Below are positions 24,135-40,109 of a DNA stretch of 64,000 bases, in pieces. The stretch comes from Salmonella phage vB_SenS-3. The position numbers and the translations under genes are program-made. Position 1 is the first letter of the stretch. Each line of letters starts with the position of its first letter. The notes beneath the pieces are model-generated. The model did no database searches. It saw only the letters and a list, made by a program, of their open reading frames with translations, and was not told where the DNA came from. The stretch lies in the sequence record OR896822.1; one strand, written 5' to 3'.

Positions 24135-24142
24135 CTGATACA

Positions 24143-24406: not shown

Positions 24407-24414
24407 AAATTAAT

Positions 24415-24489: not shown

Positions 24490-24498
24490 ATTAATAAT

Positions 24499-24569: not shown

Positions 24570-24575
24570 ATATTT

Positions 24576-24650
24576 GCACCTTTAGCTGAGATGGATTAGC
24601 GCTTGCCTGAAGAGCTTGAGAGGTTCGTTCAATTCGAACAGGGTGCACCA
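24576..24650 (+). tRNA. tRNA-Phe-like element (GAA loop) with disrupted anticodon stem
   Basis: Perfect acceptor and T-arm (GTTCG TTCAATT CGAAC), loop CTGAAGA, but flanking CTTGC/GCTTG cannot pair. Confidence 0.4.
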
Positions 24651-24667
24651 ATTTGAAGGAGATGCTG

Positions 24668-24940
24668 ATGCATCCTGAAAACTTCTTTATATACTGTACT
24701 AGTCCTTTGCTTAAACGCCGGATTAATAAAGTATATCACTACAGAGCTAGTCAACAGCCTTATGTTTATGATTCTAGTGGAGATCATATTCCACTTGAGC
24801 AACTAGGGACTGATTATATGGTTTTGAAGCACTTTAATGAGGCGAAGATCTCTAGCGTTCATAACCGACAAAACTCTAAAACGTGGTGGCATAAGAAGCG
24901 TAAGAAAGGCATCAAATTTCTTAAAAATGTAGTTGCTTAA
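24668..24940 (+). CDS. hypothetical basic protein
   Basis: AAGGAG RBS, ATG 24668; 3' end overlaps next promoter. Confidence 0.35.
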   Translation: MHPENFFIYCTSPLLKRRINKVYHYRASQQPYVYDSSGDHIPLEQLGTDYMVLKHFNEAKISSVHNRQNSKTWWHKKRKKGIKFLKNVVA

Positions 24941-24961
24941 ATCCTTAAAGTTCTGTATAAT
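24933..24961 (+). promoter_or_regulatory. early-type promoter (TTGCTT N17 TATAAT)
   Basis: Same architecture. Confidence 0.55.
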
Positions 24962-24989
24962 TATTACATAAATTGAACTGGAGAACTAG

Positions 24990-25178
24990 ATGAAAGCACC
25001 TAAACCGAAATTAGTTAAGTTCGACTGCTGTGATACTGAAATCTTATTTACTAAGTTTGGTGAATTTAAGATGTGTGAATGTGGAACATGTGGTTACGAT
25101 CATGGTGATGGATATTATTGCAGAACCCTAGGGCCTTCTGAACTAATCCACTTCTCATGGCCGGAAAGTAAAGAATAA
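24990..25178 (+). CDS. hypothetical Cys-rich small protein
   Basis: 62 aa with CC..C.C..C..C pattern (possible zinc ribbon). Confidence 0.4.
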   Translation: MKAPKPKLVKFDCCDTEILFTKFGEFKMCECGTCGYDHGDGYYCRTLGPSELIHFSWPESKE

Positions 25179-25180
25179 TA

Positions 25181-25256
25181 CGACCGTTGGCTGAATGGCT
25201 TAGGCGGAGGCCTGCAAAACCTCCTTATGTGAGTTCGAATCTCATGCGGTCGTCCA
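25181..25256 (+). tRNA. tRNA-Cys (anticodon GCA)
   Basis: Anticodon loop CTGCAAA, T-loop TTCGAAT, discriminator T, CCA; 5' base C. Confidence 0.5.
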
Positions 25257-25408
25257 ATTTGCTGAAAGAATTGTTAAATCAATTCAGGCACGCGTAGGAA
25301 CACTGCCTCAGTAATTGAAAGATGAGGCACGGTTTGGAGAGGTATGCCGCTACACGCTACGGTGCTAACTCCGTCTAGGTGAAAATCCTAGTCAGCAATA
25401 TAAATTTA

Positions 25409-25491
25409 GGGTCGTTAGCCAAGCGGTTTGGCGGTGGACTGTTAATCCATGTCGAAAGACAACGTAGGTTCGAATCCTACACGGCCCGCCA
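25409..25491 (+). tRNA. tRNA with anticodon GTT (Asn), atypically long variable region
   Basis: Acceptor GGGTCGT/ACGGCCC, anticodon loop CTGTTAA, T-loop TTCGAAT, CCA. Confidence 0.45.
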
Positions 25492-25594
25492 TATTCTATG
25501 TAGGATTAAGTAAACCGGTAGCCAACCAGCTATCATTACTGATATCGAATTCAGTCACAGATACCATTTTTCACTAACAACTGAGGAAATAGAT

Positions 25595-25780
25595 ATGACA
25601 ACTCGTGCAATTGCTCGACTAGAAGCTGATCGTGATAATCTGATTAATAATATTAAGGTTCGTGGTAATATTATTAAGGCTCTGAAAGCTGAACTTCTTG
25701 AAGAACTTCAAGGTCAAGTAGAGCGTCGTGAAGCTCTAAAAGAGGTTGAGGAAGCTATCGAAAAACTCAAGGCTGAATAA
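25595..25780 (+). CDS. hypothetical coiled-coil protein
   Basis: 61-aa ORF. Confidence 0.4.
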   Translation: MTTRAIARLEADRDNLINNIKVRGNIIKALKAELLEELQGQVERREALKEVEEAIEKLKAE

Positions 25781-25783
25781 ATT

Positions 25784-26365
25784 ATGCACGGAATATCCTT
25801 ACCCATTCCAGGGTTTGAGGAGTACTTAGTAAGTTTGGATGGGTTAGTATTTAGTATCAAATCAAACAAAATACTAACCCCAATAACCAGTAATTACGGA
25901 TACTTATCTATACGTCTCCATAAAAATGGTCAACAGAGAAATACCGGTGTACATAGGATTTTAGCATGTGCATTTAAGAAATTACCAAGTCTAGACTCTG
26001 AACTAGAAGTTGACCATATTAACACAGACATTACTTATTGGGGTCTTAATAACTTACAAGTGCTCACAAAAGAGCAGCATCTAGAAAAGACTTTAAAAGA
26101 TAAAGGATTTAGTAAACTAAACCATGATAATTGTTGTAAGGATTGTGGTAAAGCTATTTCTTTAAAAGCTGAAAAATGTCAGGAGTGCTCTTCACATAAA
26201 CCAAAAGATATCTCTATAACTAAAGAAATAATCGAGGTTACAGTAAGAGAGCTAGGCTGGTCAGGTGCAGGGAGAAAGTTAAATTATTCAGATAATGGGT
26301 TGCGTAAAAGATACACTTCTTTAGGAGGCAATCCTAAAGAACTTAAAAAGTTAAAGGTACTATAG
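25784..26365 (+). CDS. HNH endonuclease (NUMOD-like N-terminus, Cys-rich C-terminus)
   Basis: EVDHINTDITYWGLNNLQVLTKEQH HNH motif; CCKDCGKA..C.EC zinc-finger-like tail; 3' end overlaps tRNA-Asp 5' end. Confidence 0.6.
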   Translation: MHGISLPIPGFEEYLVSLDGLVFSIKSNKILTPITSNYGYLSIRLHKNGQQRNTGVHRILACAFKKLPSLDSELEVDHINTDITYWGLNNLQVLTKEQHLEKTLKDKGFSKLNHDNCCKDCGKAISLKAEKCQECSSHKPKDISITKEIIEVTVRELGWSGAGRKLNYSDNGLRKRYTSLGGNPKELKKLKVL

Positions 26366-26430
26366 TCTAACGGTTAGGATACTCCCCTGTCACGGGAGAG
26401 GTAGGGTTTCGATTACCCTTAGTACCGCCA
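26356..26430 (+). tRNA. tRNA-Asp (anticodon GTC)
   Basis: Acceptor GGTACTA/TAGTACC, anticodon loop CTGTCAC, T-loop TTCGATT, CCA. Confidence 0.7.
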
Positions 26431-26436
26431 AATTAT

Positions 26437-26513
26437 ACATCCATAGCTCAACTGGTCAGAGCTACCGCCTCTTAAGCGGAGGGTTGAAGGTTCAAGTCCT
26501 TCTGGGAGTACCA
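26437..26513 (+). tRNA. tRNA-Lys (anticodon CTT)
   Basis: Anticodon loop CTCTTAA, T-arm GAAGG TTCAAGT CCTTC, acceptor 6/7 pairs, CCA. Confidence 0.5.
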
Positions 26514-26715
26514 AACAAATAGAGTAAAGGCTACAGTAGGTGCACCCTTACGGACTGCTACACCGGACTCTATTCATTAACAAACATTCTAGCGTGGTGG
26601 AGAGGGGACACCAGCTGTGCGAGGGTAGAAGCTTGTTCGATTCAAGTGAAAGAATGGTTCTCGTAAATCCGCAGCAGTGATAGTAGGTTCAAGTCCTACC
26701 TAGATTGACTTATTA

Positions 26716-26790
26716 TGCGTTCGTAGTTAAAAGGTATAATTTTTGGTTGCCAACCAGAAGTTGAGGGTTCGATTCCCTCCGACCGCACCA
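26716..26790 (+). tRNA. tRNA-Gly (anticodon GCC)
   Basis: Anticodon loop TTGCCAA, T-arm GAGGG TTCGATT CCCTC, acceptor 6/7, CCA. Confidence 0.55.
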
Positions 26791-27041
26791 AATTTAGGTT
26801 TCTGCTTCCTAGAGAACGGACTCCTAGATAAACAAGGCGATGAGTTTCCGGCCGGTTCTAGTCGCTGAAAATCCTCCCGACCAGGTAGGTGTAGGTAAAC
26901 GAAAGTTTACTTATTGAGTAGGTTCCGATAGATCGGCGGATCTATTCTGGCATTTAAGAGAAGTCTCGCAAACTTCTTTGTCAGCAGAGCGTTTGAAGCG
27001 TGAGGTGGCCTACACAATAAGTAAATTTATTAAAAACTCAT

Positions 27042-27070
27042 TTGCTATTTCACTTAATTCTCTTTATAAT
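27042..27070 (+). promoter_or_regulatory. early-type promoter (TTGCTA N17 TATAAT) driving tRNA operon
   Basis: tRNA-Pro begins 33 nt downstream. Confidence 0.55.
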
Positions 27071-27102
27071 ATATCTTATAAAGTGAGTTAACAAAGAATA
27101 TT

Positions 27103-27180
27103 CTCCGTGTAGCTCAGTTTGGCCAGAGCGTTCCGTTTGGGGCGGTAGGGTCGGGGGTTCAAATCCTCCCACGGAGACCA
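27103..27180 (+). tRNA. tRNA-Pro (anticodon TGG)
   Basis: Acceptor CTCCGTG/CACGGAG, anticodon loop TTTGGGG, T-loop TTCAAAT, CCA. Confidence 0.6.
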
Positions 27181-27186
27181 AACAAT

Positions 27187-27264
27187 TGCGGGTTAGATCT
27201 CTGGTAGAGATCGCTAGTCTCATAAGCTAGAAAGAGGTAGGTTAGATTCCTACACCCGCTTCCA
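27187..27264 (+). tRNA. tRNA-Met (anticodon CAT)
   Basis: D-stem GATC/GATC, anticodon arm CTAGT CTCATAA GCTAG, T-loop TTAGATT, CCA. Confidence 0.55.
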
Positions 27265-27283
27265 ATTTAATAGAGGATACGAA

Positions 27284-27447
27284 ATGAAATTATTTCGATT
27301 GGTAGTAAGTGATAGACGGTCTAGCAAAGATCGTTCGAAGTATACCTTAGCCCATTATGGGAAAGATGAAAATGAAGTAATGGCTGAATTTGGTATTAAT
27401 CATCGCTACTTAGAAGTTTACTCTATTAAGGAAGTTTATCCGTATTA
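27284..27447 (+). CDS. hypothetical small protein
   Basis: 54-codon ORF between tRNAs with AGAGGA RBS. Confidence 0.3.
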
Positions 27448-27448
27448 A

Positions 27449-27526
27449 GGGTCGTTAGCTCAATTGGTTAGTAGCACTTGCCTTTTAAGCAATAGGTTGA
27501 AGGTTCGAGTCCTTCACGACCCACCA
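27449..27526 (+). tRNA. tRNA-Lys (anticodon TTT)
   Basis: Acceptor GGGTCGT/ACGACCC, anticodon loop CTTTTAA, T-arm GAAGG TTCGAGT CCTTC, CCA. Confidence 0.65.
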
Positions 27527-27535
27527 AATTACTTT

Positions 27536-27609
27536 GCTCGGTTAGTTTAATGGGAGAACCCCGTCTTTACACGGCGGTTGCGATAGTTCGATTCTATCAC
27601 CGAGTACCA
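27536..27609 (+). tRNA. tRNA-Val (anticodon TAC)
   Basis: Anticodon arm CCGTC TTTACAC GGCGG, T-arm GATAG TTCGATT CTATC, CCA. Confidence 0.6.
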
Positions 27610-27634
27610 ATTAACTCAAAATAAGGAATTGCAA

Positions 27635-27988
27635 ATGCAATTATCAAGCAAGATTCAAGGCTATTTTGGTCATGTAACAATGGAGTTCGCTATCTCTAAA
27701 GGTTGGGATTTCGAGCAAGATCTAGCTGAGTTCTACAAAGATATTGATCTGAACGTACCATACATGGGACTCTCCACTGGTCAAGAGATCACAGAAGGCG
27801 ATGTGTTCAAGGCAAGTCAAGGTGAGGTAACACCTAGTTTTGCCAAGTTCTGGTTAGGACTTACTTTGAAGGAAGATGCACCAGAGGATGGTGTGGTTAT
27901 GCAGAGTATGCACTCTGGAAGCTCTGATTACCTTTTCGTTAGCGACGTTAAGGAACTACAAGAAATCGCTAAAAATGTACTTGCTTGA
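27635..27988 (+). CDS. hypothetical protein
   Basis: ATG 27635 after AAGGA RBS. Confidence 0.45.
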   Translation: MQLSSKIQGYFGHVTMEFAISKGWDFEQDLAEFYKDIDLNVPYMGLSTGQEITEGDVFKASQGEVTPSFAKFWLGLTLKEDAPEDGVVMQSMHSGSSDYLFVSDVKELQEIAKNVLA

Positions 27989-28009
27989 TGCTTAATTTCT
28001 TGTTATAAT
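27981..28009 (+). promoter_or_regulatory. early-type promoter (TTGCTT N17 TATAAT) driving 250-nt leader plus tRNAs
   Basis: No ORF for 260 nt downstream, then tRNA-Ala pair. Confidence 0.55.
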
Positions 28010-28271
28010 ATTTATATAAATTGATGAGGAGAAATCCTCATCAAAGTTCACTAAGGTATTAGCTCGACCTAGGGCTGGCTGCCAAAAAGCACAATTGCAA
28101 TTAGACCCCTAATGGCGGGGGATACTTTGCAATAAGTTCTAGATTAGTCCACTAGATTCAGTGGCAACTGAATAGTGTATCGGGTTTGTGAAGAGCGGTT
28201 ATCCTCTACTGGCTAATGTCTGAGGGTAATACGCACACCGAGCTAATAGCCTTAGTAAACTTAAAGATTTT

Positions 28272-28350
28272 GGGGAATGGGTCTGCTTGGAGTGGACACC
28301 TCGCTTGCACCGAGGATATCAGAAGAGTTCGAATCTCTTATTCTCCACCA
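28272..28350 (+). tRNA. tRNA-Ala (anticodon TGC), copy 1
   Basis: G3:U70 pair in acceptor, anticodon arm CCTCG CTTGCAC CGAGG, T-loop TTCGAAT, CCA. Confidence 0.55.
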
Positions 28351-28355
28351 AATTC

Positions 28356-28431
28356 GGGGTCATAGGTTATTTGGTTAAACTTACTGCCTTGCAAGCAGTG
28401 GAACTCAGTTCAATTCTGAGTGACTCCACCA
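28356..28431 (+). tRNA. tRNA-Ala (anticodon TGC), copy 2
   Basis: G3:U70 pair, anticodon arm ACTGC CTTGCAA GCAGT, T-arm CTCAG TTCAATT CTGAG, CCA. Confidence 0.6.
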
Positions 28432-28450
28432 AACAAATTAAGGAAATAAT

Positions 28451-28669
28451 ATGGTATTCTTAGCAGCCTCTGTAGTTCTTGCAGCTTTAGCACTAGCTAT
28501 CTATTTTAGAACTATTAAAGATTTAGCTAAAGAAAAGAAAACTTTCTTTACTGATTATTCTTGGGGCGCTCCATATAACGTCCGCTTTATCAGCTTAGAA
28601 GCTATGCTGATAATGGTATTCAGTGGCATAGGTTCCATTGTTGCAGGGTTACTATTTATTTCTAACTAA
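28451..28669 (+). CDS. hypothetical membrane protein
   Basis: 72 aa, two hydrophobic helices. Confidence 0.4.
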   Translation: MVFLAASVVLAALALAIYFRTIKDLAKEKKTFFTDYSWGAPYNVRFISLEAMLIMVFSGIGSIVAGLLFISN

Positions 28670-28685
28670 ATAAAATGGGGATGTG

Positions 28686-28766
28686 GCGAAATTGGCAGAC
28701 GCGCTAGATTTAGGTTCTAGTCTTCGGGTGTGGGTTCGAGTCCCTCCATCCCTACCAAACATTGGA
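28686..28766 (+). tRNA. tRNA-Leu (anticodon TAG)
   Basis: D-arm GGCGAAATTGGCAGACGC, anticodon arm CTAGA TTTAGGT TCTAG, long variable arm, CCA. Confidence 0.7.
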
Positions 28767-28782
28767 TTAACTCATGATGAAA

Positions 28783-28950
28783 ACTCCTATAACTGATATC
28801 TGGTTAGCTGTTAATACATCAACTAAAGAGTATGTGTTTATAGAGTATGGTCAGAGGTATGACCAAAAGATGTATAATCTCATACTTCCAGTATCTGCTA
28901 ATGAAGTTTATGATTTAATCCTGAGATCTACGGAAGAGCAAATCGATTAG
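28783..28950 (+). CDS. hypothetical small protein
   Basis: 55-codon ORF between tRNAs; 3' end overlaps next tRNA candidate. Confidence 0.25.
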   Translation, partial: TPITDIWLAVNTSTKEYVFIEYGQRYDQKMYNLILPVSANEVYDLILRSTEEQID

Positions 28951-29024
28951 GTGACGAAAACCGCTTGGAAAGTGGCTGACTTGTTAAAGCAGGCTTGAGA
29001 ATTCGAATCTCTCTTCTTCCGCCA
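28932..29024 (+). tRNA. class II tRNA, tentatively tRNA-Ser (anticodon GGA)
   Basis: Acceptor GGAAGAG/TTCTTCC, T-loop TTCGAAT, CCA; anticodon arm assignment uncertain. Confidence 0.4.
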
Positions 29025-29045
29025 AACAACTAATAGGGAATATAA

Positions 29046-29288
29046 ATGAAAGTCAAGATTATGATGTTGGATTTAGCTAATGATAAGTTTTTCTTGCGTC
29101 ATACATTCCCTAGTAAGCAAGCTTTAGAGTTTCATATCAAGTACGCAATAGGCATGAAACTTCCTGAGCGAGAAATATTTGATAAAGCATGTGATACTGG
29201 AGTTATTTATGTATGGCAAACAACCTATCATGATAATCCAGAAGATCTTCGAAAAGAAGTAGAACAAATACTAGAAGATAGGACGTAG
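29046..29288 (+). CDS. hypothetical protein
   Basis: 80-aa ORF; 3' end overlaps tRNA-Ser(TGA) 5' end. Confidence 0.4.
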   Translation: MKVKIMMLDLANDKFFLRHTFPSKQALEFHIKYAIGMKLPEREIFDKACDTGVIYVWQTTYHDNPEDLRKEVEQILEDRT

Positions 29289-29362
29289 TGGTATGTAACC
29301 GGTCTTGAAAACCGGCCCGCTGTAGTGATACGGTGATGGTTCGACTCCATTATCTTCTGCCA
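29273..29362 (+). tRNA. tRNA-Ser (anticodon TGA)
   Basis: Acceptor AGAAGAT/ATCTTCT, perfect anticodon arm CCGGT CTTGAAA ACCGG, long variable arm, T-loop TTCGACT, CCA. Confidence 0.6.
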
Positions 29363-29687
29363 AATCTTGAAGTATGCCGGAATCGGTAGACGGGGCTTCC
29401 TAAAGGGCGTAAGGGGAACATCCACTCCTCATAAGATACCCGAAAACGAGGCTGAGATAACTGGTCTATCTCGTGAAGGTTCGAGTCCTTCTGCTTCTTG
29501 ATATTCATCAATGGCTCAAAGTGTAACGGTGCTATTTGATGCTCTTAGTAAGACTTTCCCGACATGCGTTCGGGAGTAAGCTGCTAAGGCTAGAGTAGAA
29601 GAGTTTCGGAGAGCCGCCACAATTGAAGTCTTTAGAATGGGTATCGCCCTTTAGCCCCTCCGAAAGGGATAACTAGAGATTTCAATT

Positions 29688-29764
29688 GTGGTTATATCAT
29701 AATTGGTTAATGATCCTGATTGTGAATCAGGCCTATGTGGATTCGAATTCCACTAACCACCCCA
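29688..29764 (+). tRNA. tRNA-His (anticodon GTG)
   Basis: Acceptor GTGGTTA/TAACCAC, anticodon arm CCTGA TTGTGAA TCAGG, T-arm GTGGA TTCGAAT TCCAC, CCA. Confidence 0.7.
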
Positions 29765-29770
29765 AATATT

Positions 29771-29845
29771 GCGTCCTTATTTCAATGGAAAGAATGTAAA
29801 GCTACGAACTTTACGATCGGGGTTCGATTCCCTGAGGATGCACCA
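29771..29845 (+). tRNA. tRNA-Arg (anticodon ACG)
   Basis: Anticodon arm GTAAAG CTACGAA CTTTAC, T-loop TTCGATT, CCA. Confidence 0.65.
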
Positions 29846-29869
29846 ATTAACTTATACAGGAACTAAAAT

Positions 29870-30070
29870 ATGGCTGATTTCTGCAAAGAATGCTCTATCG
29901 ATATGTGGGGCAAAGATACTGGTGATCTTTCTGGTCTGATTACAGAAGCCGAAGTTAAAGAAGGCTATGGTGCTGTTGTAATCTGTGAAGGTTGTGGTAT
30001 TATTCGTGTTGACCATAATGGTAAACGTCTAGAAGAACCAGATCCAATTGCCACGGTTCCTGTAGAATAA
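29870..30070 (+). CDS. hypothetical Cys-containing protein
   Basis: 66 aa; CKEC...CEGC pairs. Confidence 0.4.
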   Translation: MADFCKECSIDMWGKDTGDLSGLITEAEVKEGYGAVVICEGCGIIRVDHNGKRLEEPDPIATVPVE

Positions 30071-30077
30071 AAATTAT

Positions 30078-30153
30078 TGGGATGTAGATCAATTGGCAGA
30101 TCGTCGGCCTCTGACTCCGAAGGTTCCACGTTCGATCCGTGGCATCCCAGCCA
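30078..30153 (+). tRNA. tRNA-Gln (anticodon CTG)
   Basis: 5' U start, D-stem GATC/GATC, anticodon loop CTCTGAC, T-arm CCACG TTCGATC CGTGG, CCA. Confidence 0.65.
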
Positions 30154-30159
30154 AACAAT

Positions 30160-30235
30160 TGGAGAGTAGTGTAACGGTTAGCACAACGGCCTTTGACTCC
30201 GTTAATGGTAGGTTCGATTCCTCCTTCTCCAGCCA
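30160..30235 (+). tRNA. tRNA-Gln (anticodon TTG)
   Basis: Acceptor TGGAGAG/TTCTCCA, anticodon loop CTTTGAC, T-loop TTCGATT, CCA. Confidence 0.6.
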
Positions 30236-30241
30236 ATTTAT

Positions 30242-30316
30242 GCGTGATTAGTTCAGTGGCTAGAATAACTGGCTTCCAACCAGTAGACACGAGTTCGACT
30301 CTCGTATCCCGCACCA
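30242..30316 (+). tRNA. tRNA-Gly (anticodon TCC)
   Basis: Anticodon arm ACTGG CTTCCAA CCAGT, T-arm ACGAG TTCGACT CTCGT, acceptor 6/7, CCA. Confidence 0.65.
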
Positions 30317-30332
30317 AATATAAGGAAACGTT

Positions 30333-30554
30333 ATGGACGTTTTTGAGTTTCGTAATAAAAACCCCAATAGACGAGTTTTAATTATTGGTGAAACATATAG
30401 AGCTTATGAGCAAGAAGATGGTTCGGTTTTATTAAATGATGAAAAACAAGGCTATAGCTTTCATCCAGAAGAAACATATGAAGAATTTCGTACTAAGTTT
30501 CTTTTACCAGACTGGCTAGCAATAGCTGAGCAAAGAGAATCCAAAGATGGCTGA
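30333..30554 (+). CDS. hypothetical protein
   Basis: 73-aa ORF after tRNA-Gly. Confidence 0.4.
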   Translation: MDVFEFRNKNPNRRVLIIGETYRAYEQEDGSVLLNDEKQGYSFHPEETYEEFRTKFLLPDWLAIAEQRESKDG

Positions 30555-30711
30555 TAATCTAAAGCTAAAAGTAGATAAACGAATGAAGTGCGTTGAGGTT
30601 GAGTTGGGTGAAGAACGTTTAAAACTCTCCTTCGAATTCTTACAGCAGTTGGCTATGACAGTAATGTCTGATAAGTCTCCTGTATTTGAAAAAGAAATCC
30701 CGTTGAAATAA
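30547..30711 (+). CDS. hypothetical small protein
   Basis: 54-codon ORF overlapping previous stop; followed by CCCGTTGAAATAACGGG hairpin. Confidence 0.25.
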   Translation: MADNLKLKVDKRMKCVEVELGEERLKLSFEFLQQLAMTVMSDKSPVFEKEIPLK

Positions 30712-30720
30712 CGGGTTTAT
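30698..30720 (+). terminator. hairpin terminator candidate
   Basis: CCCGTT GAAATA ACGGG followed by TTTATT. Confidence 0.5.
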
Positions 30721-30721
30721 T

Positions 30722-30796
30722 GCTCCTAAAGCATTGCTGGCGATGCAGTTGCCTTGTAAGCATCTGAACCGGGTTCGATTCCTGGTGGGAGCACCA
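30722..30796 (+). tRNA. tRNA-Thr (anticodon TGT)
   Basis: Acceptor GCTCCTA/TGGGAGC, anticodon loop CTTGTAA, T-arm CCGGG TTCGATT CCTGG, CCA. Confidence 0.6.
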
Positions 30797-30811
30797 AATT
30801 TAAAAATTCAT

Positions 30812-30840
30812 TTGCCTTCTCTCTTATTTCTTGTTATAAT
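30812..30840 (+). promoter_or_regulatory. early-type promoter (TTGCCT N17 TATAAT)
   Basis: Same architecture. Confidence 0.5.
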
Positions 30841-30870
30841 ATTTATATAAATTAATGAGAGGGAAACCAA

Positions 30871-31164
30871 ATGAAACGTTATCTTTCTGTCGTATTCCAA
30901 ACGGGTGGTCAACGCTACACTTATGAATTTCCTGAGTCCTGGAAAATTAAAGAAGGTGATCAAGTTGTTGTATTAACACCTCGTGAAGGCTTCAAAGTAG
31001 TAACGGTTAAACAAGTATTTCCAAAAGATCACGAACCATCTAAGTCTATTCAGTACAAGATGATTCATGGTCTAGTTCGTAAAGTACCACGAACTGAGGT
31101 AGAAGTAGATAAGACTGGTGAAGCTAAATACCAGTATACTTCTTACTTAGACGAGTTGTTATAA
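30871..31164 (+). CDS. hypothetical protein
   Basis: 97 aa; promoter at 30812. Confidence 0.45.
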   Translation: MKRYLSVVFQTGGQRYTYEFPESWKIKEGDQVVVLTPREGFKVVTVKQVFPKDHEPSKSIQYKMIHGLVRKVPRTEVEVDKTGEAKYQYTSYLDELL

Positions 31165-31370
31165 TGAGAATTACTTTCACAGAAAAGATTATGGGCAATG
31201 GTGTTATGATCATTACCGCATGGGATGGTAATCAGTGGTGTAGTGTTTCAGGTATTAAGCCTGAAGAACAAACACTAGAAAATATCTCAAAGATTAAGCG
31301 AAGAATGGCAGAACGTGCACGACTTCCAGGTGCTCCTAGAAATGGTAAACGTTCTGCAATTAAATGTTAA
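31164..31370 (+). CDS. hypothetical protein
   Basis: 68 aa, ATGA overlap with previous gene. Confidence 0.4.
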   Translation: MRITFTEKIMGNGVMIITAWDGNQWCSVSGIKPEEQTLENISKIKRRMAERARLPGAPRNGKRSAIKC

Positions 31371-31371
31371 T

Positions 31372-31448
31372 GCTTCGGTAGCTTAGCGATCTAAAGCACT
31401 CGGCTGATAACCGAGAGATCGGGGGTTTAAATCCCTCCCGGAGTACCA
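31372..31448 (+). tRNA. tRNA-Ile (anticodon GAT)
   Basis: Anticodon arm CTCGG CTGATAA CCGAG, T-loop TTTAAAT, acceptor with G-U pairs, CCA. Confidence 0.6.
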
Positions 31449-31544
31449 AATTTAGGAAGTAAGACTATGCGTCCAGGAAAGTTTAAAAAAGCTAATTGGT
31501 CTAAAGAGTATAAAGAATACTTACTTAGTCTAGTAAAACATAAT

Positions 31545-31617
31545 AGTTAGTTGGCAGAGAGGTTATGCACCTCCTTCATACGGAGCGCCTACAGTGGTTC
31601 AAATCCACTACTAACTA
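31545..31617 (+). tRNA. tRNA with anticodon CAT (third CAT tRNA), CCA not encoded
   Basis: Acceptor AGTTAGT/ACTAACT, anticodon loop TTCATAC, T-arm AGTGG TTCAAAT CCACT. Confidence 0.45.
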
Positions 31618-31984
31618 CTAAACAGAGGATCAGATCATTGTACCAGATCCTGCTGAGAAGAGAGTCCACATTCTATAAATGGCCGGGCGTGACAGCAGGA
31701 AGTAGACTGCAACTCCATGCTATACAGGAGTATAAATGTAGAAGCTAGGGCTTTAGATAGCCATTGTCTTAGCGTGAGCAATCACGTAGTTGCAACAGAC
31801 CAGGGGATAGCAACGTTAAAATCAAAGCTCCTGTGCTTATTAAACTGAATGGGACTATCAATCCACAAGCCGGACTACGAGCGATTATCGGGTATTCACT
31901 TAATAAGCAAGCCTGCCTTCCAGTTTTTATCTTGCTTCTGGGTTAACAAAAAGCTGAGCCAAATTCTAGCATCAGGGAGATCTA

Positions 31985-35580: not shown

Positions 35581-35609
35581 GTTGCTCAGATGCCACAAGT
35601 ATTGTATAA
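35581..35609 (+). promoter_or_regulatory. early-type promoter (TTGCTC N17 TATAAT)
   Basis: Follows terminator at 35530. Confidence 0.5.
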
Positions 35610-35641
35610 TATGTTTATAGATTGAGGCAAAAGGATAATTT

Positions 35642-36340
35642 ATGAGAATCATTTCAAAGTTCAATGATGTATACGATTTGCAGAATAGTTTATTTGATCC
35701 AGATCGTGTCTGGGAGCGTAAAACTGAAGAGCTGCTAGTAAAAGTAACTGACGATGTAGAAAAGAATATCGTTCATAATCGTCAGGTGTTTCGTGAGGGT
35801 TCCTTATCCTTCCGTGGTGACTTCGAATACTCAGTAAATCCACTGTTTATTGCAGGTGAAGTTTACTGGTTACATGAACTGTCCTGCTGGCATCCAGCAT
35901 TCAGTTTCAAAACGTTCAACATCGATGCTGTGTTCGATAAAATGGAAGAAATGGGATTACATGCCCGTTCTTACTTACTAGATAAGAATCGTGGTGATGT
36001 TCGTGAAACCATGCGAGATATGTTGGTTGAAGCAAAACCTAAAGCAGAACGTATCTTATCTGAACTGCGCGTACCAATTGCATATGTGAAAGGTATTAAG
36101 AAGAACGATAACGATGATGTTCGTAACTTCGTAATTCAGACAAACATTCGTTTCCATCAGTCAGGTATTCCGTGGCAGGAAATTGAAAGTAACTTATACC
36201 GTTTACACCAAGTTCTCGAACAGTATATTTTCGGTGTACTAGGAACTGGTGAGCCTGATATGATTACCGTATCAGATAAAGACAGGTTAGCAGCACATGG
36301 ATTTGATACAAAAACTTCTTTCAGGAATATGGCAAGGTAA
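35642..36340 (+). CDS. hypothetical protein
   Basis: 232-aa ORF; promoter at 35581. Confidence 0.5.
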   Translation: MRIISKFNDVYDLQNSLFDPDRVWERKTEELLVKVTDDVEKNIVHNRQVFREGSLSFRGDFEYSVNPLFIAGEVYWLHELSCWHPAFSFKTFNIDAVFDKMEEMGLHARSYLLDKNRGDVRETMRDMLVEAKPKAERILSELRVPIAYVKGIKKNDNDDVRNFVIQTNIRFHQSGIPWQEIESNLYRLHQVLEQYIFGVLGTGEPDMITVSDKDRLAAHGFDTKTSFRNMAR

Positions 36341-36746
36341 GTGGTATATCCTGGGAGCTGGTCTTGCGATAGGTATCGGATTCGGTGCTTATCACTTAGT
36401 AAATAAGGTTGAAACTCTAGCTGGGGATCTTGCAGTTGCGGCTAAAAAGATCTCCACTCTAGAGACTTCCCTTAATAAGGTGAAAACTGAAAGTGAACTT
36501 CGGGAGACTCGAATGAACCAGTATTTCACAATGAATAATATTTCGCAAGCAGATCTAGACAAAAAGATTAAGCAGTTAGATAAAGCTCTTAATCGTCAAG
36601 ATGTTATCGCTGCAAAGCCTGGATTGGTAACATTAATTGCTAAAAAGCAGAATAAAGAGTTCGAGGAAAGATTAGCGTGTTTAACTGGAAACTTGGAGTA
36701 CTGCTCGCAGCCGCAATCACAATCACAGGCTGTGCAGAAGAAATAA
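36297..36746 (+). CDS. candidate i-spanin (N-terminal TM, periplasmic coiled coil)
   Basis: TM WYILGAGLAIGIGFGAYHLV followed by helical Lys/Glu-rich domain; 3' end overlapped by lipoprotein gene. Confidence 0.4.
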   Translation: MDLIQKLLSGIWQGKWYILGAGLAIGIGFGAYHLVNKVETLAGDLAVAAKKISTLETSLNKVKTESELRETRMNQYFTMNNISQADLDKKIKQLDKALNRQDVIAAKPGLVTLIAKKQNKEFEERLACLTGNLEYCSQPQSQSQAVQKK

Positions 36747-37030
36747 AACCAGAGCCATCCCATGAGTTAAAGCAAGCTCATATCGATTGGCCTAAAGGAC
36801 TTCAGCCTTGTAGTTTTGATTTCAAATTCGAAAAGAAATTAGCTACAAATGGTGAAGATGGCGTAGTAGTTGTTGTACCTTACAAAGATTGGAATGCAAA
36901 AGCAAAATGCGAGGAAGCAGTTTACTCTTACATTTCACGACTGACCGGTATGGTTTGCTTCTATCGTCAGGATTTACAAGAAAAACGTTGCTTAGTTTAT
37001 TATCCACCCATTACAAATAGGAAAGATTAA
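36677..37030 (+). CDS. candidate o-spanin (lipoprotein)
   Basis: GTG start, lipobox ITGC after signal peptide; overlaps 3' end of upstream TM/coiled-coil gene in another frame. Confidence 0.4.
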   Translation: MFNWKLGVLLAAAITITGCAEEIKPEPSHELKQAHIDWPKGLQPCSFDFKFEKKLATNGEDGVVVVVPYKDWNAKAKCEEAVYSYISRLTGMVCFYRQDLQEKRCLVYYPPITNRKD

Positions 37031-37782
37031 TGTCAGTATTAGTCGGTTTACATGGTGAGGCTGGTGCGGGAAAAGATACTGTTGCAAAATTAATGATTGA
37101 CTGGTGTAATGACACGTTCCCAACGTGTTTATCCCGTCGTTATAGTTTTGCTAAACCCGTTTACGAACTTGCATCCGTAATCCTCGGGGTAACTCCAGAG
37201 TTTCTGGGAGAGCGCAGGAGAAAAGAGATTGACCAATGGTTTACGATCACACAATCTCAATTGGAGCGAGCTAGAGACGTATGGTTTAAGTATGGTATCG
37301 ATAAGTTTGAGGACTTCTCGTACGTTTGGCCGATTTTTGAAGGAAAATACCTTGATCCTCAGCAGTTAATTGGGCAAGCTGATGATGCGCTGTATAGCGT
37401 GTTTATCTCCCCAAGAAAAATGCTACAGCTTGTAGGTACTGAGTTAGGAAGGCAGCTGGTGCATGAACGCATTTGGCTCATAATTCTGGAGCAATCCATC
37501 GATAAAGACGACCCAGACGTCGCAATCGTTACCGATGTGCGTTTCCCCAATGAGGGAGAGCTAATCATGGAAACCAATACTCTAGATATGGATTCCATGC
37601 TTATTAAGGTTGAATCTGGTATTACTAATAAGTATCGCATCGAGACAGATCATCCGTCTGAAAGCGGTATTCCTGAAAAATACATTTCTCATAAATTTGA
37701 GAATACCTTCAACGGACTTGATGCACTTCGTACCGATGTGTACCACTTCTGTGACTTAGAGCTAGAACCACTAGTTGGATAA
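37030..37782 (+). CDS. dnk: deoxynucleoside monophosphate kinase
   Basis: P-loop GLHGEAGAGKDT; 250 aa, T5 dNMP-kinase-like size and position. Confidence 0.7.
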   Translation: MSVLVGLHGEAGAGKDTVAKLMIDWCNDTFPTCLSRRYSFAKPVYELASVILGVTPEFLGERRRKEIDQWFTITQSQLERARDVWFKYGIDKFEDFSYVWPIFEGKYLDPQQLIGQADDALYSVFISPRKMLQLVGTELGRQLVHERIWLIILEQSIDKDDPDVAIVTDVRFPNEGELIMETNTLDMDSMLIKVESGITNKYRIETDHPSESGIPEKYISHKFENTFNGLDALRTDVYHFCDLELEPLVG

Positions 37783-37794
37783 TTAAGGATCACT

Positions 37795-38394
37795 ATGACT
37801 AATAAGAAAGAAGAAAAGACTAACTTGTTTCACACTGTTCGCCAATCTAACGAATATACCTTTTTCTTTGATGAAGAATTAGGCTCACCGGATGAGTATC
37901 GTGACCTATCCATGATACTTATGCAGGCTGGTGAAGAAGATGAAATTAATCTGATGATTAATGGGCCTGGTGGTTACGTTGATACTGCTGCACAACTATC
38001 TAACCTAATCGCTAACTGTCGTGGAACGGTTATTGGACACCTGCTCGGTCCTAGTGCTTCTGCTTACTGTACAATCTTCCTGTCTTGCCACGGTTGGGTT
38101 GTACATCCACATGCTACGCTTATGGGACATACGTTCTCTGGCGGATTCTGCGAGAAAGGTCAAGAAATCAAGAAAGCCTATGAATCCTACAACCAGTTTG
38201 TAGAAGATATGATGCTAGATATTTACTTTCCGTTCTTCTCTGTCGACGAAATCGAGGATATGGTAAAAGAGAATAAGAATATCTATCTCAACAGCAAAGA
38301 AATCAATAAGCGTATTGAAATTTTGGCGAATTATCGTAAAGAGCAGTGTAGTAAAGCTCAAGCCCCGCATCCAGAAGAACATGGAGAAGTGTAA
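37795..38394 (+). CDS. ClpP-like serine peptidase (putative)
   Basis: INGPGGYVDTAAQL resembles ClpP/S14 fold motif. Confidence 0.5.
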   Translation: MTNKKEEKTNLFHTVRQSNEYTFFFDEELGSPDEYRDLSMILMQAGEEDEINLMINGPGGYVDTAAQLSNLIANCRGTVIGHLLGPSASAYCTIFLSCHGWVVHPHATLMGHTFSGGFCEKGQEIKKAYESYNQFVEDMMLDIYFPFFSVDEIEDMVKENKNIYLNSKEINKRIEILANYRKEQCSKAQAPHPEEHGEV

Positions 38395-38403
38395 GTAGTT
38401 TTA

Positions 38404-38438
38404 AGCCAGAGTTTAACGACTCTGGCTTTTCTTTTGCC
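38404..38438 (+). terminator. rho-independent terminator
   Basis: AGCCAGAGT...ACTCTGGCTTTTCTTTT. Confidence 0.65.
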
Positions 38439-38550
38439 TAAAATTCTTCTTGACAACGACAAAAAATTGTGCTCCAGAAGTGATCTTAAAAAACACATTG
38501 TAATTTTACTCTAGAATTAGTATAATGGTAGTGGTTAGAGGAGGTTACAA

Positions 38551-39207
38551 GTGGAAAAGTTTATACAACTATTAACGATACTGCTACAAGAAGCGAAAGA
38601 TCCAGCTTCGCTACTAAAACGTCTGCTAACTATCTTAGTTGCTGTCATTATTTTCTTGTTTATAAGTAACACTAGCGAGGTGATGTCATTTTTAAAGACT
38701 TTCTCCACGTCTTCGGTTTTACAGGATGTTCAAACCCAAAGGATAGATAACTTTCCTAATGTAGCACGAGAAAAGAGTATGGTTCTTTTCTCCCAGACTG
38801 GTGCGGATGCCGTTTTTGTAGTAAAGTATAAACCAGATGCTATAAATGATTATTCAAACATTATTGCATGGGAAAGCAATGCGCAATTGGATAGGGCTGA
38901 CTTGGCAGATAAAGCAGTAAACAAGACGTCTGAACTTTATAGACGTCACCTGGAAGGCTTTAACTATGCTGCGGATTTAAGTGTAAAAGTAAATAAATAT
39001 ACGGGGTCAAATATACCAGCGTTTAAGAACATTACTTTTAATTACGTCTACACTTGTCCATATTTCAACCTAAATAATATCTATGCTGGATACATAGGTA
39101 TTGCATGGAAGGATAAACCCGTAGATACAGCTGATTCGGAACAATTTAATGAGTACTTAGCAAAGCTCTGTTCCCCACAACGGAGATCATTAGGTAGATC
39201 TATATGA
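38551..39207 (+). CDS. putative holin (membrane protein upstream of endolysin)
   Basis: GTG start with GGAGG RBS; N-terminal TM LLTILVAVIIFLFI; position immediately 5' of endolysin. Confidence 0.45.
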   Translation: MEKFIQLLTILLQEAKDPASLLKRLLTILVAVIIFLFISNTSEVMSFLKTFSTSSVLQDVQTQRIDNFPNVAREKSMVLFSQTGADAVFVVKYKPDAINDYSNIIAWESNAQLDRADLADKAVNKTSELYRRHLEGFNYAADLSVKVNKYTGSNIPAFKNITFNYVYTCPYFNLNNIYAGYIGIAWKDKPVDTADSEQFNEYLAKLCSPQRRSLGRSI

Positions 39208-39617
39208 GTTTTAAATTTGGTAAAAATAGCGAAAAACAATTAGCAACTGTTAAGCCCGAGCTACAGAAGGTAGCTCGTAGGGCTTTAGAATTATCTCCAT
39301 ATGATTTCACAATCGTACAGGGTATTCGTACAGTAGCACAAAGTGCCCAAAACATTGCTAATGGTACTTCATTTTTGAAAGACCCTAGCAAAAGTAAGCA
39401 TGTAACTGGAGACGCTATCGATTTTGCACCATATATTAATGGTAAGATTGATTGGAAAGATCTGGAAGCATTTTGGGCTGTTAAGAAGGCTTTTGAACAA
39501 GCTGGTAAGGAACTTGGTGTCAAACTTCGTTTTGGTGCCGACTGGAATAGTTCTGGTGATTATCATGATGAGATCGATCGTGGTACTTACGACGGTGGTC
39601 ACGTAGAATTAGTCTGA
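39204..39617 (+). CDS. lys: endolysin, L-alanyl-D-glutamate peptidase type
   Basis: 137 aa; H..D...H zinc-peptidase pattern (SKHVTGDAIDF ... DGGHVE). Confidence 0.75.
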   Translation: MSFKFGKNSEKQLATVKPELQKVARRALELSPYDFTIVQGIRTVAQSAQNIANGTSFLKDPSKSKHVTGDAIDFAPYINGKIDWKDLEAFWAVKKAFEQAGKELGVKLRFGADWNSSGDYHDEIDRGTYDGGHVELV

Positions 39618-39628
39618 TAATAAATCAA

Positions 39629-39650
39629 GGCGGGGTAATTCCCGCCTTTT
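39629..39650 (+). terminator. rho-independent terminator
   Basis: GGCGGG GTAATT CCCGCC TTTT. Confidence 0.65.
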
Positions 39651-39692
39651 AAAGCAAAGGGGGCTTTAAAAACTTAATGATAGGAGAAAGCC

Positions 39693-40109
39693 ATGTTTGC
39701 AGAACTATTCACCATGATATTACTAGGAATATGGAAAATAAGCCTAGTAGTTTTCATCTTAATGATAATTCTCACTGTTGTCGCACTAGTTACCCAAAAT
39801 GATACATTAAAGAAAGTCGTTCATGGGCTAGAGTATATAATTATGGGCACATTCGGCGTTTGCAAATGCAACTGCCAGAGGAATACGAAATATTGTTGGC
39901 TTTGGATGGAGTTAGAGAACTGCATCACAGTAGCCTTGGCTGTCTCATTCGGTATGATTCTTATGGCCCTTACTCTAGCATTGATACCACTAATGTTAGC
40001 TGGGGGAGTCACGGCTTATTTCACCCTTTTCTCCCCTATACTTATGTATTCAATATACCCAATAACTATGTACTTAGTTAGGAAGAGATTCCCACATCAA
40101 GCACACTAA
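39693..40109 (+). CDS. hypothetical polytopic membrane protein
   Basis: 138 aa, 3-4 hydrophobic helices. Confidence 0.45.
   Translation: MFAELFTMILLGIWKISLVVFILMIILTVVALVTQNDTLKKVVHGLEYIIMGTFGVCKCNCQRNTKYCWLWMELENCITVALAVSFGMILMALTLALIPLMLAGGVTAYFTLFSPILMYSIYPITMYLVRKRFPHQAH

What the first reader, a model, noticed from the sequence alone, without database searches (positions are those of the whole stretch)
36297..37030. Candidate overlapped i-spanin / o-spanin pair 1.5 kb upstream of holin-endolysin
ORF 36297-36746 has an N-terminal TM helix followed by a long helical periplasmic-type domain. ORF 36677-37030 starts 70 nt before its stop in another frame and encodes a lipoprotein (lipobox ITGC). 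This matches the overlapped two-component spanin architecture, and no other spanin candidate is obvious near the lysis genes.
Basis: inference. Interest (0 to 1): 0.5.

Follow-up and report, generated by a model that had tools for sequence, protein, structure and literature searches.

The report
T5-type overlapped spanin gene pair

Summary
Both ORFs exist exactly as described: 36297-36746 (149 aa, ATG) and 36677-37030 (117 aa, GTG). They overlap by 70 nt in different frames, 1.5 kb upstream of the holin-endolysin pair. The window is an Epseptimavirus (T5-like, Demerecviridae) genome, 100% identical here to Salmonella phages vB_SenS-3, RA40 and polluks. Several GenBank and RefSeq records already annotate the same two ORFs as i-spanin and o-spanin, phage TrudiRoth with identical boundaries. 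Kongari et al. 2018 list a "T5 family" of overlapped spanins that includes EPS7 and overlaps by 70 bp. Both proteins match PHROG spanin families (E 2e-37 and 7e-30). Those families also contain T4 PseT.3 and PseT.2, a pair shown by experiment to replace lambda Rz/Rz1. The lipobox Cys19 and the two cysteines essential in T4 PseT.2 (here C94 and C105) are invariant across six Demerecviridae phages (five named genera) and two T4-like phages. The overlap, its frame and the gene order are conserved across the family. Neither protein matches any Pfam family, so they are not sequence relatives of lambda Rz/Rz1. Only minor points are added here: the homology to T4, family-specific extra cysteines, and several database records that omit the o-spanin or mis-start it. 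No lysis experiment on a T5-family spanin was found. Novelty: already known; interest low.

The parts
36297..36746 (+). i-spanin gene (149 aa). It has a short N-terminal cytoplasmic stub, a TMD at about residues 17-35, a helical/coiled-coil periplasmic domain, and a conserved C-terminal C128-x7-C136 motif followed by a variable Gln/Ser tail.
   Evidence: ORF. phrog_739 at E 2.2e-37. 85% identical to T5 T5p044; BLASTP E 5e-6 to T4 PseT.3. Hydropathy, heptad and AF2 results. Annotated i-spanin in polluks and TrudiRoth.
36677..37030 (+). o-spanin gene (117 aa precursor, 99-aa mature lipoprotein). GTG start, SPII signal with lipobox ITGC (Cys19), and four further periplasmic Cys (45, 78, 94, 105).
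   Evidence: ORF. phrog_812 at E 7.4e-30. 90% identical to T5 T5p043; BLASTP E 2e-7 to T4 PseT.2. The homologous start codon is ATG in T5, Sugarland, DU_PP_V, the Proteus phage and KKP_3711. Annotated o-spanin with identical boundaries in TrudiRoth.
36677..36746 (+). 70-nt dual-coding overlap. It encodes the i-spanin C-terminus (LACLTGNLEYCSQPQSQSQAVQKK) and, in frame +2, the o-spanin signal peptide (MFNWKLGVLLAAAITITGCAEEI).
   Evidence: Window versus T5 substitutions are 0.043 per nt here, against 0.11 and 0.176 in the flanking single-coding parts. An overlap in the same frame is present in five other Demerecviridae phages, at 34-88 nt.
36653..36662 (+). Shine-Dalgarno-like GAGGAAAG upstream of the o-spanin GTG, lying inside the i-spanin coding sequence.
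   Evidence: Read directly from the sequence. The 20 nt upstream are identical in T5, and DU_PP_V carries a similar GAGGAAAG. Inference only.
35642..38394 (+). Presumed operon that carries the spanins: 232-aa ORF of unknown function, i-spanin, o-spanin, dNMP kinase, Clp-like protease. The genes are tightly packed: a 44-nt overlap, the 70-nt overlap, and a TAATG stop/start overlap.
   Evidence: ORFs and PHROGs. The same gene order occurs in T5, Sugarland, DU_PP_V, the Proteus phage and KKP_3711.
38403..38428 (+). Terminator-like hairpin that separates the spanin-containing operon from the holin-endolysin operon.
   Evidence: A terminator is annotated at the equivalent place in phage Sugarland.
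38551..39617 (+). Holin (218 aa, T4 gpt-like class III) and L-Ala-D-Glu peptidase endolysin (137 aa). These are the functional partners of the spanin in the three-step lysis pathway.
   Evidence: phrog_860 at E 2.8e-77 and phrog_465 at E 4.8e-54. A promoter-like site lies at 38498-38526. A promoter is annotated at the same place in T5.

Best explanation
The two ORFs encode the two-component spanin of an Epseptimavirus (T5-like) phage.

The 149-aa protein is a type II inner-membrane protein (N-in, C-out). Its periplasmic domain is a helical, partly coiled-coil rod.

The 117-aa protein is exported, lipidated at Cys19 by the Lgt/LspA/Lnt pathway, and sorted by Lol to the inner leaflet of the outer membrane, because the +2 residue is Ala.

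The C-terminal regions of the two proteins bind each other through the peptidoglycan meshwork, so the complex spans the periplasm. Disulfide bonds made by the host Dsb system covalently stabilise homodimers. The o-spanin C94/C105 pair is equivalent to the essential T4 PseT.2 C87/C98. Family-specific extra cysteines are C45/C78 in the o-spanin and C128/C136 in the i-spanin.

The holin permeabilises the inner membrane and the L-Ala-D-Glu peptidase destroys the murein. The freed complexes can then cluster and collapse, pull the two membranes together and fuse them. This removes the outer membrane as the last barrier to virion release.

Shown here: the ORFs, the membrane and lipoprotein signals, homology to the validated T4 spanins, conservation of the key residues, and the overlap with dual-coding constraint. 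Inferred from lambda and T4 work: topology, complex formation, disulfide chemistry and membrane fusion.
For: ORFs and the 70-nt overlap. TMD and lipobox.

PHROG 739 and 812, both 'Rz-like spanin', at E 2e-37 and 7e-30. T4 PseT.3 and PseT.2 hit the same two PHROGs at E 1e-37 and 5e-42. Direct BLASTP to the T4 proteins gives E 5e-6 and 2e-7.

T4 pseT.3/pseT.2 complement a lambda Rz-am/Rz1-am lysis defect, and PseT.2 C87 and C98 are both essential (PMC6139136 section 12). These align with C94 and C105 here. They are invariant in 8 of 8 sequences, as are lipobox G18-C19.

Identity to the T5 proteins is 85% and 90%. T5 and EPS7 are listed in the published 'T5' i- and o-spanin families, with a 70-bp overlap.

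The same ORFs are annotated i-spanin/o-spanin or 'Rz-like spanin' in TrudiRoth, S147, polluks and Sugarland; the Sugarland note reads 'LipoP SPII signal cleavage at residues 18-19'.

The pairing, the frame and the synteny with dnk, Clp protease, holin and endolysin are conserved in six Demerecviridae phages from five named genera.

Natural split in phage Shivani: a homing endonuclease gene separates the two genes and both stay intact, so they are independent genes. The i-spanin keeps its Cys motif and the o-spanin keeps its lipobox.

Secondary structure: the i-spanin is nearly all helical. The o-spanin is beta-alpha-beta-beta, matching the beta1-alpha-beta2 pattern published for T4 PseT.2.
Against: No experiment on any T5-family spanin turned up in the paper library searched. 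Function therefore rests on homology to T4 at about 25-30% identity, and on signals.

The TMD hydropathy of 1.55 is borderline. The positive-inside rule does not discriminate orientation, with a net +1 charge on both flanks. The Sugarland record even notes 'N out C in'.

No Pfam or NCBIfam family matches.

The AF2 models are low confidence, pLDDT 55 and 62.

The genes lie in a different transcription unit from the holin and endolysin, in what the T5 record calls the early C-region. Their timing relative to lysis has not been shown.
Confidence: 0.93

Rival explanations
1. The 117-aa lipoprotein is a superinfection-exclusion or receptor-blocking lipoprotein, like T5 Llp or phi80/N15 Cor, and not an o-spanin. 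On this reading the 149-aa protein is an unrelated membrane protein.
For: T5-like phages do encode small exclusion lipoproteins (PMC4342426). The gene lies in an early-type operon, away from the holin.
Against: The window already has a separate Cor/Llp-type lipoprotein at 61377-61643(-), matching phrog_1119 at E 1e-23. The 117-aa protein instead matches the PseT.2 o-spanin family and carries its essential Cys pair. It is always paired with, and overlapped by, the PseT.3 homolog.
Confidence: 0.03
2. It is a spanin pair, but the o-spanin is translated from a different start than GTG 36677. One candidate is the codon 24 nt downstream that RefSeq uses for phage S147. That would give a shorter signal peptide and a 46-nt overlap.
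For: RefSeq NC_048012 annotates the o-spanin from the position equivalent to window 36701.
Against: That codon is CTG in both S147 and the window, and it would leave a signal peptide with no charged n-region. T5, Sugarland, DU_PP_V, the Proteus phage and KKP_3711 all have ATG at the position homologous to 36677, and the N-terminus M-x-N/K-W-K/R is conserved. A GAGG motif lies 10 nt upstream of the GTG. TrudiRoth is annotated with the GTG start.
Confidence: 0.03
3. The ORFs are chance open frames or degenerate remnants with no function.
For: None beyond the general frequency of short ORFs in AT-rich phage DNA.
Against: Both ORFs are intact and conserved at 23-90% amino-acid identity across six Demerecviridae phages and the T4-like phages, with invariant functional residues. 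More than 530 phage records carry them. Substitutions are fewer in the dual-coding stretch.
Confidence: 0.01

Closest known systems
T5 spanin family of the SpaninDataBase (Kongari et al. 2018, PMC6139136): T5 T5p044/T5p043 and their equivalents in EPS7, SPC35, DT57C, AKFV33, FFH1 and Stitch
   Same: 85% (i-spanin) and 90% (o-spanin) amino-acid identity to the T5 proteins. The overlap is the same 70 nt in the same frame, the lipobox is the same ITGC, the cysteines are the same, and dnk, Clp protease, holin and endolysin follow downstream in the same order. EPS7, the founding member of this window's genus, gives a 98.7% identical i-spanin tblastn match.
   Different: The i-spanin N-terminal 14 residues differ from T5. 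T5 has an HNH endonuclease gene inserted directly upstream; in the window the i-spanin start instead overlaps the 232-aa upstream ORF by 44 nt. The o-spanin start is GTG here and ATG in T5.
T4 PseT.3 / PseT.2, a separated two-component spanin that is experimentally validated
   Same: Same PHROG families, 739 and 812. The i-spanin shares the conserved 'DV(I/V)AxKPGLV' helix-linker motif. The o-spanin shares the W-P linker, the beta-alpha-beta core and the C-terminal 'C(F/Y)YRQ(D/E)LxExxC' motif with both essential cysteines. The holin partner is also T4 gpt-like class III (PMC12894885).
   Different: Identity is only about 23-24% in the alignments. In T4 the genes overlap by just 4 nt ('separated'), and PseT.3 has no periplasmic Cys and ends before the C-x7-C motif. 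The Demerecviridae i-spanin is extended by about 10-40 residues into the o-spanin signal-peptide coding region. The Demerecviridae o-spanin has a second Cys pair (C45, C78), and in Markadamsvirinae a Y-Y-P-P tail.
Lambda Rz / Rz1, the prototype embedded two-component spanin
   Same: Same functional class and the same logic: a type II inner-membrane protein with a coiled-coil periplasmic domain, plus an outer-membrane lipoprotein encoded in another frame of the same DNA, with periplasmic cysteines for homotypic disulfides (established knowledge; PMC6139136).
   Different: No detectable sequence similarity: no Pfam family was matched. Rz1 is fully embedded in Rz and is short, proline-rich and unstructured. 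Here the o-spanin only overlaps the 3' end, its mature form is 99 aa, and it is predicted to fold. Lambda's spanin genes sit inside the lysis cassette; here they are 1.5 kb upstream in another operon.
T1 gp11, a unimolecular spanin
   Same: An N-terminal outer-membrane lipoprotein signal.
   Different: A u-spanin has a C-terminal TMD in the same polypeptide. The 117-aa protein ends in the hydrophilic LVYYPPITNRKD and has no second hydrophobic segment.

Membership tests
Two-component spanin (functional class, criteria of Kongari et al. 2018) | i-spanin: a single N-terminal TMD with a substantial, mostly helical periplasmic domain | tested here: met
   There is one hydrophobic segment, residues 17-35, with KD 1.55. 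AF2 helices at 2-79, 84-99 and 108-129. Heptad signal at 36-63, reached by 1 of 500 shuffles. The N-in/C-out orientation itself is inferred, not shown.
Two-component spanin (functional class, criteria of Kongari et al. 2018) | o-spanin: a signal peptidase II signal with a lipobox Cys, and no Asp at +2 (outer-membrane sorting) | tested here: met
   MFNWKLGVLLAAAITITG|C-A: lipobox ITGC, K5 in the n-region, Ala at +2. G18-C19 are invariant in 8 homologs. This was a rule-based test only; LipoP and SignalP were not available, though the Sugarland homolog carries a LipoP SPII note.
Two-component spanin (functional class, criteria of Kongari et al. 2018) | Adjacent genes in embedded, overlapped or separated architecture | tested here: met
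   Overlapped: 70 nt, frame +2.
Two-component spanin (functional class, criteria of Kongari et al. 2018) | At least one periplasmic cysteine available for intermolecular disulfides (507 of 528 known systems) | tested here: met
   The i-spanin has C128 and C136. The mature o-spanin has C45, C78, C94 and C105, in addition to the lipidated C19. All are conserved within Demerecviridae.
Two-component spanin (functional class, criteria of Kongari et al. 2018) | Required for outer-membrane disruption, or able to complement lambda Rz-am/Rz1-am | not testable with these tools
   This needs a wet-lab experiment. It has been done for the T4 homologs, not for any T5-family member found in the library.
T5 i-/o-spanin families (SpaninDataBase threshold: at least 40% identity over at least 40% of the length) | Sequence identity to the T5 representative above the threshold | tested here: met
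   85% (i-spanin) and 90% (o-spanin) over the full length. tblastn gives 89.7% for the o-spanin against T5.
PseT.3 / PseT.2 superfamily (PHROG 739 / 812) | A significant profile match over most of the profile, shared with the T4 proteins | tested here: met
   Window proteins: E 2.2e-37 (profile positions 5-122 of 122) and 7.4e-30 (1-100 of 102). T4 proteins: E 1.3e-37 and 5e-42 against the same profiles.
PseT.3 / PseT.2 superfamily (PHROG 739 / 812) | The o-spanin C-terminal Cys pair that is essential in T4 (C87, C98) | tested here: met
   C94 and C105 align with them and are invariant.
Lambda Rz / Rz1 sequence families (Pfam) | A match to a Pfam Rz-type or Rz1-type model above the gathering score | tested here: not met
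   No spanin-related Pfam family appears even at E <= 1; only sub-threshold chance hits were listed. NCBIfam likewise gives nothing. The pair works like Rz/Rz1 but is not a member of those sequence families.
Unimolecular spanin (T1 gp11 type) | A lipobox signal and a C-terminal TMD in one polypeptide | tested here: not met
   The 117-aa protein has no C-terminal hydrophobic segment.

The most novel reading that the evidence does not exclude
The most novel reading not excluded has two parts.

First, the Demerecviridae spanin may be an overlapped derivative of a T4-type separated spanin. On this view the overlap arose when the i-spanin reading frame extended about 10-40 codons into the o-spanin signal-peptide coding region and recruited a new, now conserved C-x7-C motif. 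A second Cys pair (C45/C78) appeared in parallel in the o-spanin. That would be a concrete, datable case of overprinting adding function to a spanin.

Second, and more speculative, the six periplasmic cysteines could permit a heterotypic i-spanin to o-spanin disulfide. Only homotypic linkages have been seen in lambda and T4.

The T4-T5 homology is implicit in the PHROG clustering but is not discussed in the 2018 spanin survey, which treats the two as separate families.
Probability: 0.3. Interest if true: 0.3.

Novelty: already known. Interest (0 to 1): 0.08.

Why it matters
It matters little for discovery, because this is a catalogued spanin family. There is some practical value for annotation. 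Several public records of identical or near-identical phages lack the o-spanin CDS (polluks), call both genes hypothetical (RA40, S147 GenBank, PMBT36), or start the o-spanin at a CTG (RefSeq S147). The pair is a useful check case for pipelines that miss genes overlapped in another frame. The link to the validated T4 spanins gives the T5-family annotation firmer footing than signals alone. The Demerecviridae-specific cysteines are testable targets for anyone studying how spanin function depends on disulfide bonds.

Tried and rejected
- Pfam and NCBIfam scans of both proteins gave only sub-threshold chance hits.
- Profile searches of the PDB gave no homolog with a solved structure. The i-spanin profile hit only generic coiled coils such as Lpp, GCN4 and tropomyosin. 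The o-spanin profile hit only signal-peptide-level noise.
- Single-sequence AlphaFold2 models were too weak for fold searching (pLDDT 54.7 and 62.5), so I used them for secondary structure only and ran no fold search.
- The positive-inside rule could not orient the i-spanin TMD, with a net +1 charge on both flanks.
- I looked for an alternative spanin, including a u-spanin, with a six-frame lipobox screen of the whole window. The only other hit is a Cor/Llp-like exclusion lipoprotein.
- I tried to read Summer et al. 2007 (J Mol Biol 373:1098), the first survey of Rz/Rz1 equivalents, but it is not held.
- Three library searches found no lysis experiment on a T5-family spanin.
- I did not run the large protein-database searches (search for homologous proteins, the search of protein representatives), because the answer was already settled by cheaper evidence.
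Full report
**1. Observation**

The ORF list contains exactly the two ORFs reported:
- 36297..36746, + strand, 149 aa, ATG start.
- 36677..37030, + strand, 117 aa, GTG start.

They share 70 nt (36677-36746). The second ORF lies in frame +2 relative to the first.

The 149-aa product has one hydrophobic segment, residues 17-35 (YILGAGLAIGIGFGAYHLV). Its 19-residue Kyte-Doolittle mean is 1.55. A Lys/Leu/Ala/Gln/Glu-rich region follows.
- A single-sequence AlphaFold2 model makes this region almost entirely helical: helices 2-79, 84-99 and 108-129, with a disordered tail. Confidence is low to moderate (pLDDT 62.5).
- A heptad score over residues 36-63 is reached by only 1 of 500 shuffles.

The 117-aa product begins MFNWKLGVLLAAAITITGC.
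- It has a basic n-region (K5) and an uncharged hydrophobic core.
- The lipobox is I-T-G-C with Cys19, and Ala sits at +2.
- By the Lol sorting rule (established knowledge), this predicts an outer-membrane lipoprotein.

The holin (38551-39207, phrog_860, E 3e-77) and the L-Ala-D-Glu peptidase endolysin (39204-39617, phrog_465, E 5e-54) start 1,520 nt downstream of the o-spanin stop.

A six-frame screen of the whole window for lipoprotein signals finds only one other candidate, 61377-61643(-). That ORF matches the Cor-type superinfection-exclusion family phrog_1119 at E 1e-23.

**2. What the window is**

Megablast of 35600-39700 finds 460 phage records. The segment is 100% identical to Salmonella phages vB_SenS-3, RA40 and polluks, and 98-99.9% identical to many others. 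All belong to genus Epseptimavirus (Demerecviridae, Markadamsvirinae), which are T5-like siphophages.

Existing annotation of the two ORFs:
- Escherichia phage TrudiRoth annotates them with identical boundaries as 'i-spanin' and 'o-spanin'.
- RefSeq S147 calls both 'Rz-like spanin'.
- polluks annotates only the i-spanin.

**3. Family assignment**

Against PHROGs, the 149-aa protein matches phrog_739 (E 2.2e-37) and the 117-aa protein matches phrog_812 (E 7.4e-30). Both families are labelled 'Rz-like spanin'. Pfam and NCBIfam give nothing significant, so the proteins are not sequence relatives of lambda Rz/Rz1.

The spanin survey of Kongari et al. 2018 (PMC6139136) lists a 'T5' i-spanin family and a 'T5' o-spanin family. 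Members are T5, EPS7, SPC35, DT57C, AKFV33, FFH1, Stitch, My1, phiR201 and Shivani. The survey classes them as overlapped and states that 'the T5 spanins overlap by 70 bp'.

The window proteins are 85% and 90% identical to T5 T5p044 and T5p043. EPS7, the founding member of this window's genus, gives a 98.7% identical i-spanin match by tblastn. The finding is therefore already in the literature and in the databases.

**4. Link to experimentally validated spanins**

A weak tblastn hit of the o-spanin to pseT.2 of a T4-like Edwardsiella phage led me to compare with T4 itself.
- BLASTP gives E 2e-7 for the o-spanin against PseT.2, and E 5e-6 for the i-spanin against PseT.3.
- The T4 proteins hit the same PHROGs at E 5e-42 and 1.3e-37.

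Kongari et al. showed that pseT.3/pseT.2 complement a lambda Rz-am/Rz1-am lysis defect. They also showed that PseT.2 C87 and C98 are each essential.

I aligned six Demerecviridae phages, five of them from named genera (Epseptimavirus, Tequintavirus, Sugarlandvirus, Hongcheonvirus, Novosibvirus) plus the unclassified Markadamsvirinae phage KKP_3711, together with T4 and PEi26.
- The invariant o-spanin positions are M1, G18, C19, P25, P39, P68, Y85, C94, Y96, E102 and C105.
- These include the lipobox and the two cysteines equivalent to T4 C87 and C98.
- The low-confidence AF2 model of the o-spanin (pLDDT 54.7) gives strand 63-69, helix 72-86 and strands 91-97 and 102-108. This agrees with the beta1-alpha-beta2 pattern published for PseT.2. 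It places C94 and C105 on neighbouring strands.
- The i-spanins share the motif (D/E)(V/I)(V/I)AxKPGLV, with P108 invariant.

**5. Features specific to Demerecviridae**

- All six Demerecviridae o-spanins have a second cysteine pair, C45 and C78, which the T4-like proteins lack.
- All six i-spanins end with C-L-(T/V/S)-G-(N/D)-x3-C (C128, C136), whereas T4 PseT.3 stops just before it.
- This motif is encoded inside the overlap, opposite the o-spanin signal peptide.
- In the five other phages the overlap is 70, 43, 88, 34 and 34 nt, always in the same frame, with an ATG at the position of the window's GTG.
- Between the window and T5 the substitution density is 0.043 per nt in the overlap. In the adjacent single-coding parts it is 0.11 and 0.176. 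This is what dual coding predicts.

Phage Shivani provides a natural control, because a homing endonuclease gene has split the pair.
- Its i-spanin keeps C128 and C136 but loses the SQPQSQSQAVQKK tail.
- Its o-spanin N-terminus changes from MFNWK to MHKIK, and the rest is unchanged.
- So the two genes are independent. The Cys motif is selected in the i-spanin frame. The 'FNW' of the signal peptide is conserved only because of the overlap.

**6. Operon context**

The spanin genes sit in a tightly packed run:
- The 232-aa ORF (35642-36340, phrog_4243, unknown function) overlaps the i-spanin start by 44 nt.
- The o-spanin stop and the dNMP kinase start share TAATG.
- A Clp-like protease gene follows.
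- A terminator-like hairpin at 38403-38428 and a promoter-like site at 38498-38526 precede the holin. This matches the terminator annotated in Sugarland and the promoter annotated in T5.

The spanins are therefore probably transcribed separately from the holin-endolysin operon. [quoted passage not shown] Both groups thus share a holin type and a spanin type.

**7. Mechanism**

This is inferred from lambda and T4 work and was not tested here.
1. The i-spanin is anchored N-in/C-out in the inner membrane. The o-spanin is lipidated at C19 and delivered to the outer membrane.
2. Their C-terminal parts bind across the periplasm, threaded through the murein. Dsb-dependent disulfides lock homodimers.
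3. After holin triggering and murein degradation, the complexes cluster and collapse. This fuses the inner and outer membranes.

**8. Caveats**

- No T5-family spanin has been tested experimentally in the literature I could search.
- The TMD is only moderately hydrophobic, and flanking charges do not settle its orientation.
- The structure models are weak, and no solved homolog exists.
- The RefSeq S147 o-spanin start, 24 nt downstream, is a CTG. It is almost certainly a mis-call, given the conserved ATG/GTG upstream.

**9. Verdict**

The feature is an already known member of the T5 spanin family. Interest is low. The modest additions are:
- the explicit homology to the validated T4 spanins;
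- the family-specific cysteines;
- the evidence that the overlap reflects an i-spanin C-terminal extension;
- the note that many public records still miss or mis-start the o-spanin.

Noticed in passing
window 61377-61643 (-): An 88-aa lipoprotein ORF (MKKLLAIVVAAVVLTGC...) matches phrog_1119, 'Cor superinfection exclusion protein', at E 1e-23. It is probably this phage's receptor-blocking lytic-conversion lipoprotein, analogous to T5 Llp. It is the only other lipobox ORF in the window.
   Followed up: partly
window 17645-31618 (+): A cluster of 28 tRNA genes, typical of T5-like phages. It includes one that ARAGORN calls tRNA-SeC, with the UGA-reading anticodon tca, at 17645-17718. There are also duplicated tRNA-Ala(tgc) genes and three tRNA-Met(cat) genes.
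   Followed up: no
window 39693-40109 (+): A 138-aa multi-pass membrane protein (phrog_5944, unknown function) lies immediately downstream of the endolysin. It is conserved at the same place in T5 (T5p038), Sugarland and DU_PP_V. Its position suggests a possible lysis-associated role such as a holin regulator, but nothing was tested.
   Followed up: no
window 35642-36340 (+): A 232-aa ORF of unknown function (phrog_4243) overlaps the i-spanin start by 44 nt. It sits directly upstream of the spanins in Epseptimavirus, Sugarland, KKP_3711 and Shivani. In T5 an HNH endonuclease gene is inserted between it and the i-spanin, which changes the i-spanin N-terminus.
   Followed up: partly
L001 (polluks MT074456), L002 (S147 NC_048012); hits H2, H7, H11: The annotation of identical sequence is inconsistent across records. 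polluks has no o-spanin CDS. RefSeq S147 starts the o-spanin at a CTG 24 nt downstream of the GTG. RA40, S147 (GenBank) and PMBT36 label both genes hypothetical.
   Followed up: yes
L011 (Shivani NC_028754) 1115-1813; L004 (T5 AY692264) 2630-3127: Homing endonuclease genes have inserted at two different junctions of the spanin locus in different T5-like phages: a GIY-YIG gene between the i- and o-spanin in Shivani, and an HNH gene upstream of the i-spanin in T5. This suggests the locus is a recurrent target.
   Followed up: partly
window 38403-38428 and 38498-38526 (+): A terminator-like hairpin with 11 pairs lies after the Clp-like protease gene. A promoter-like site (TTGTAA-17-TATAAT) lies 25 nt before the holin start. 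Together they mark the holin-endolysin genes as a separate transcription unit.
   Followed up: partly
search hits H57, H77, H103: Records named 'Campylobacter phage C13/A148' and 'Listeria phage LM 4-11-1' carry near-identical T5-like spanin genes. Their host labels look doubtful: the cause may be contamination or misattribution.
   Followed up: no
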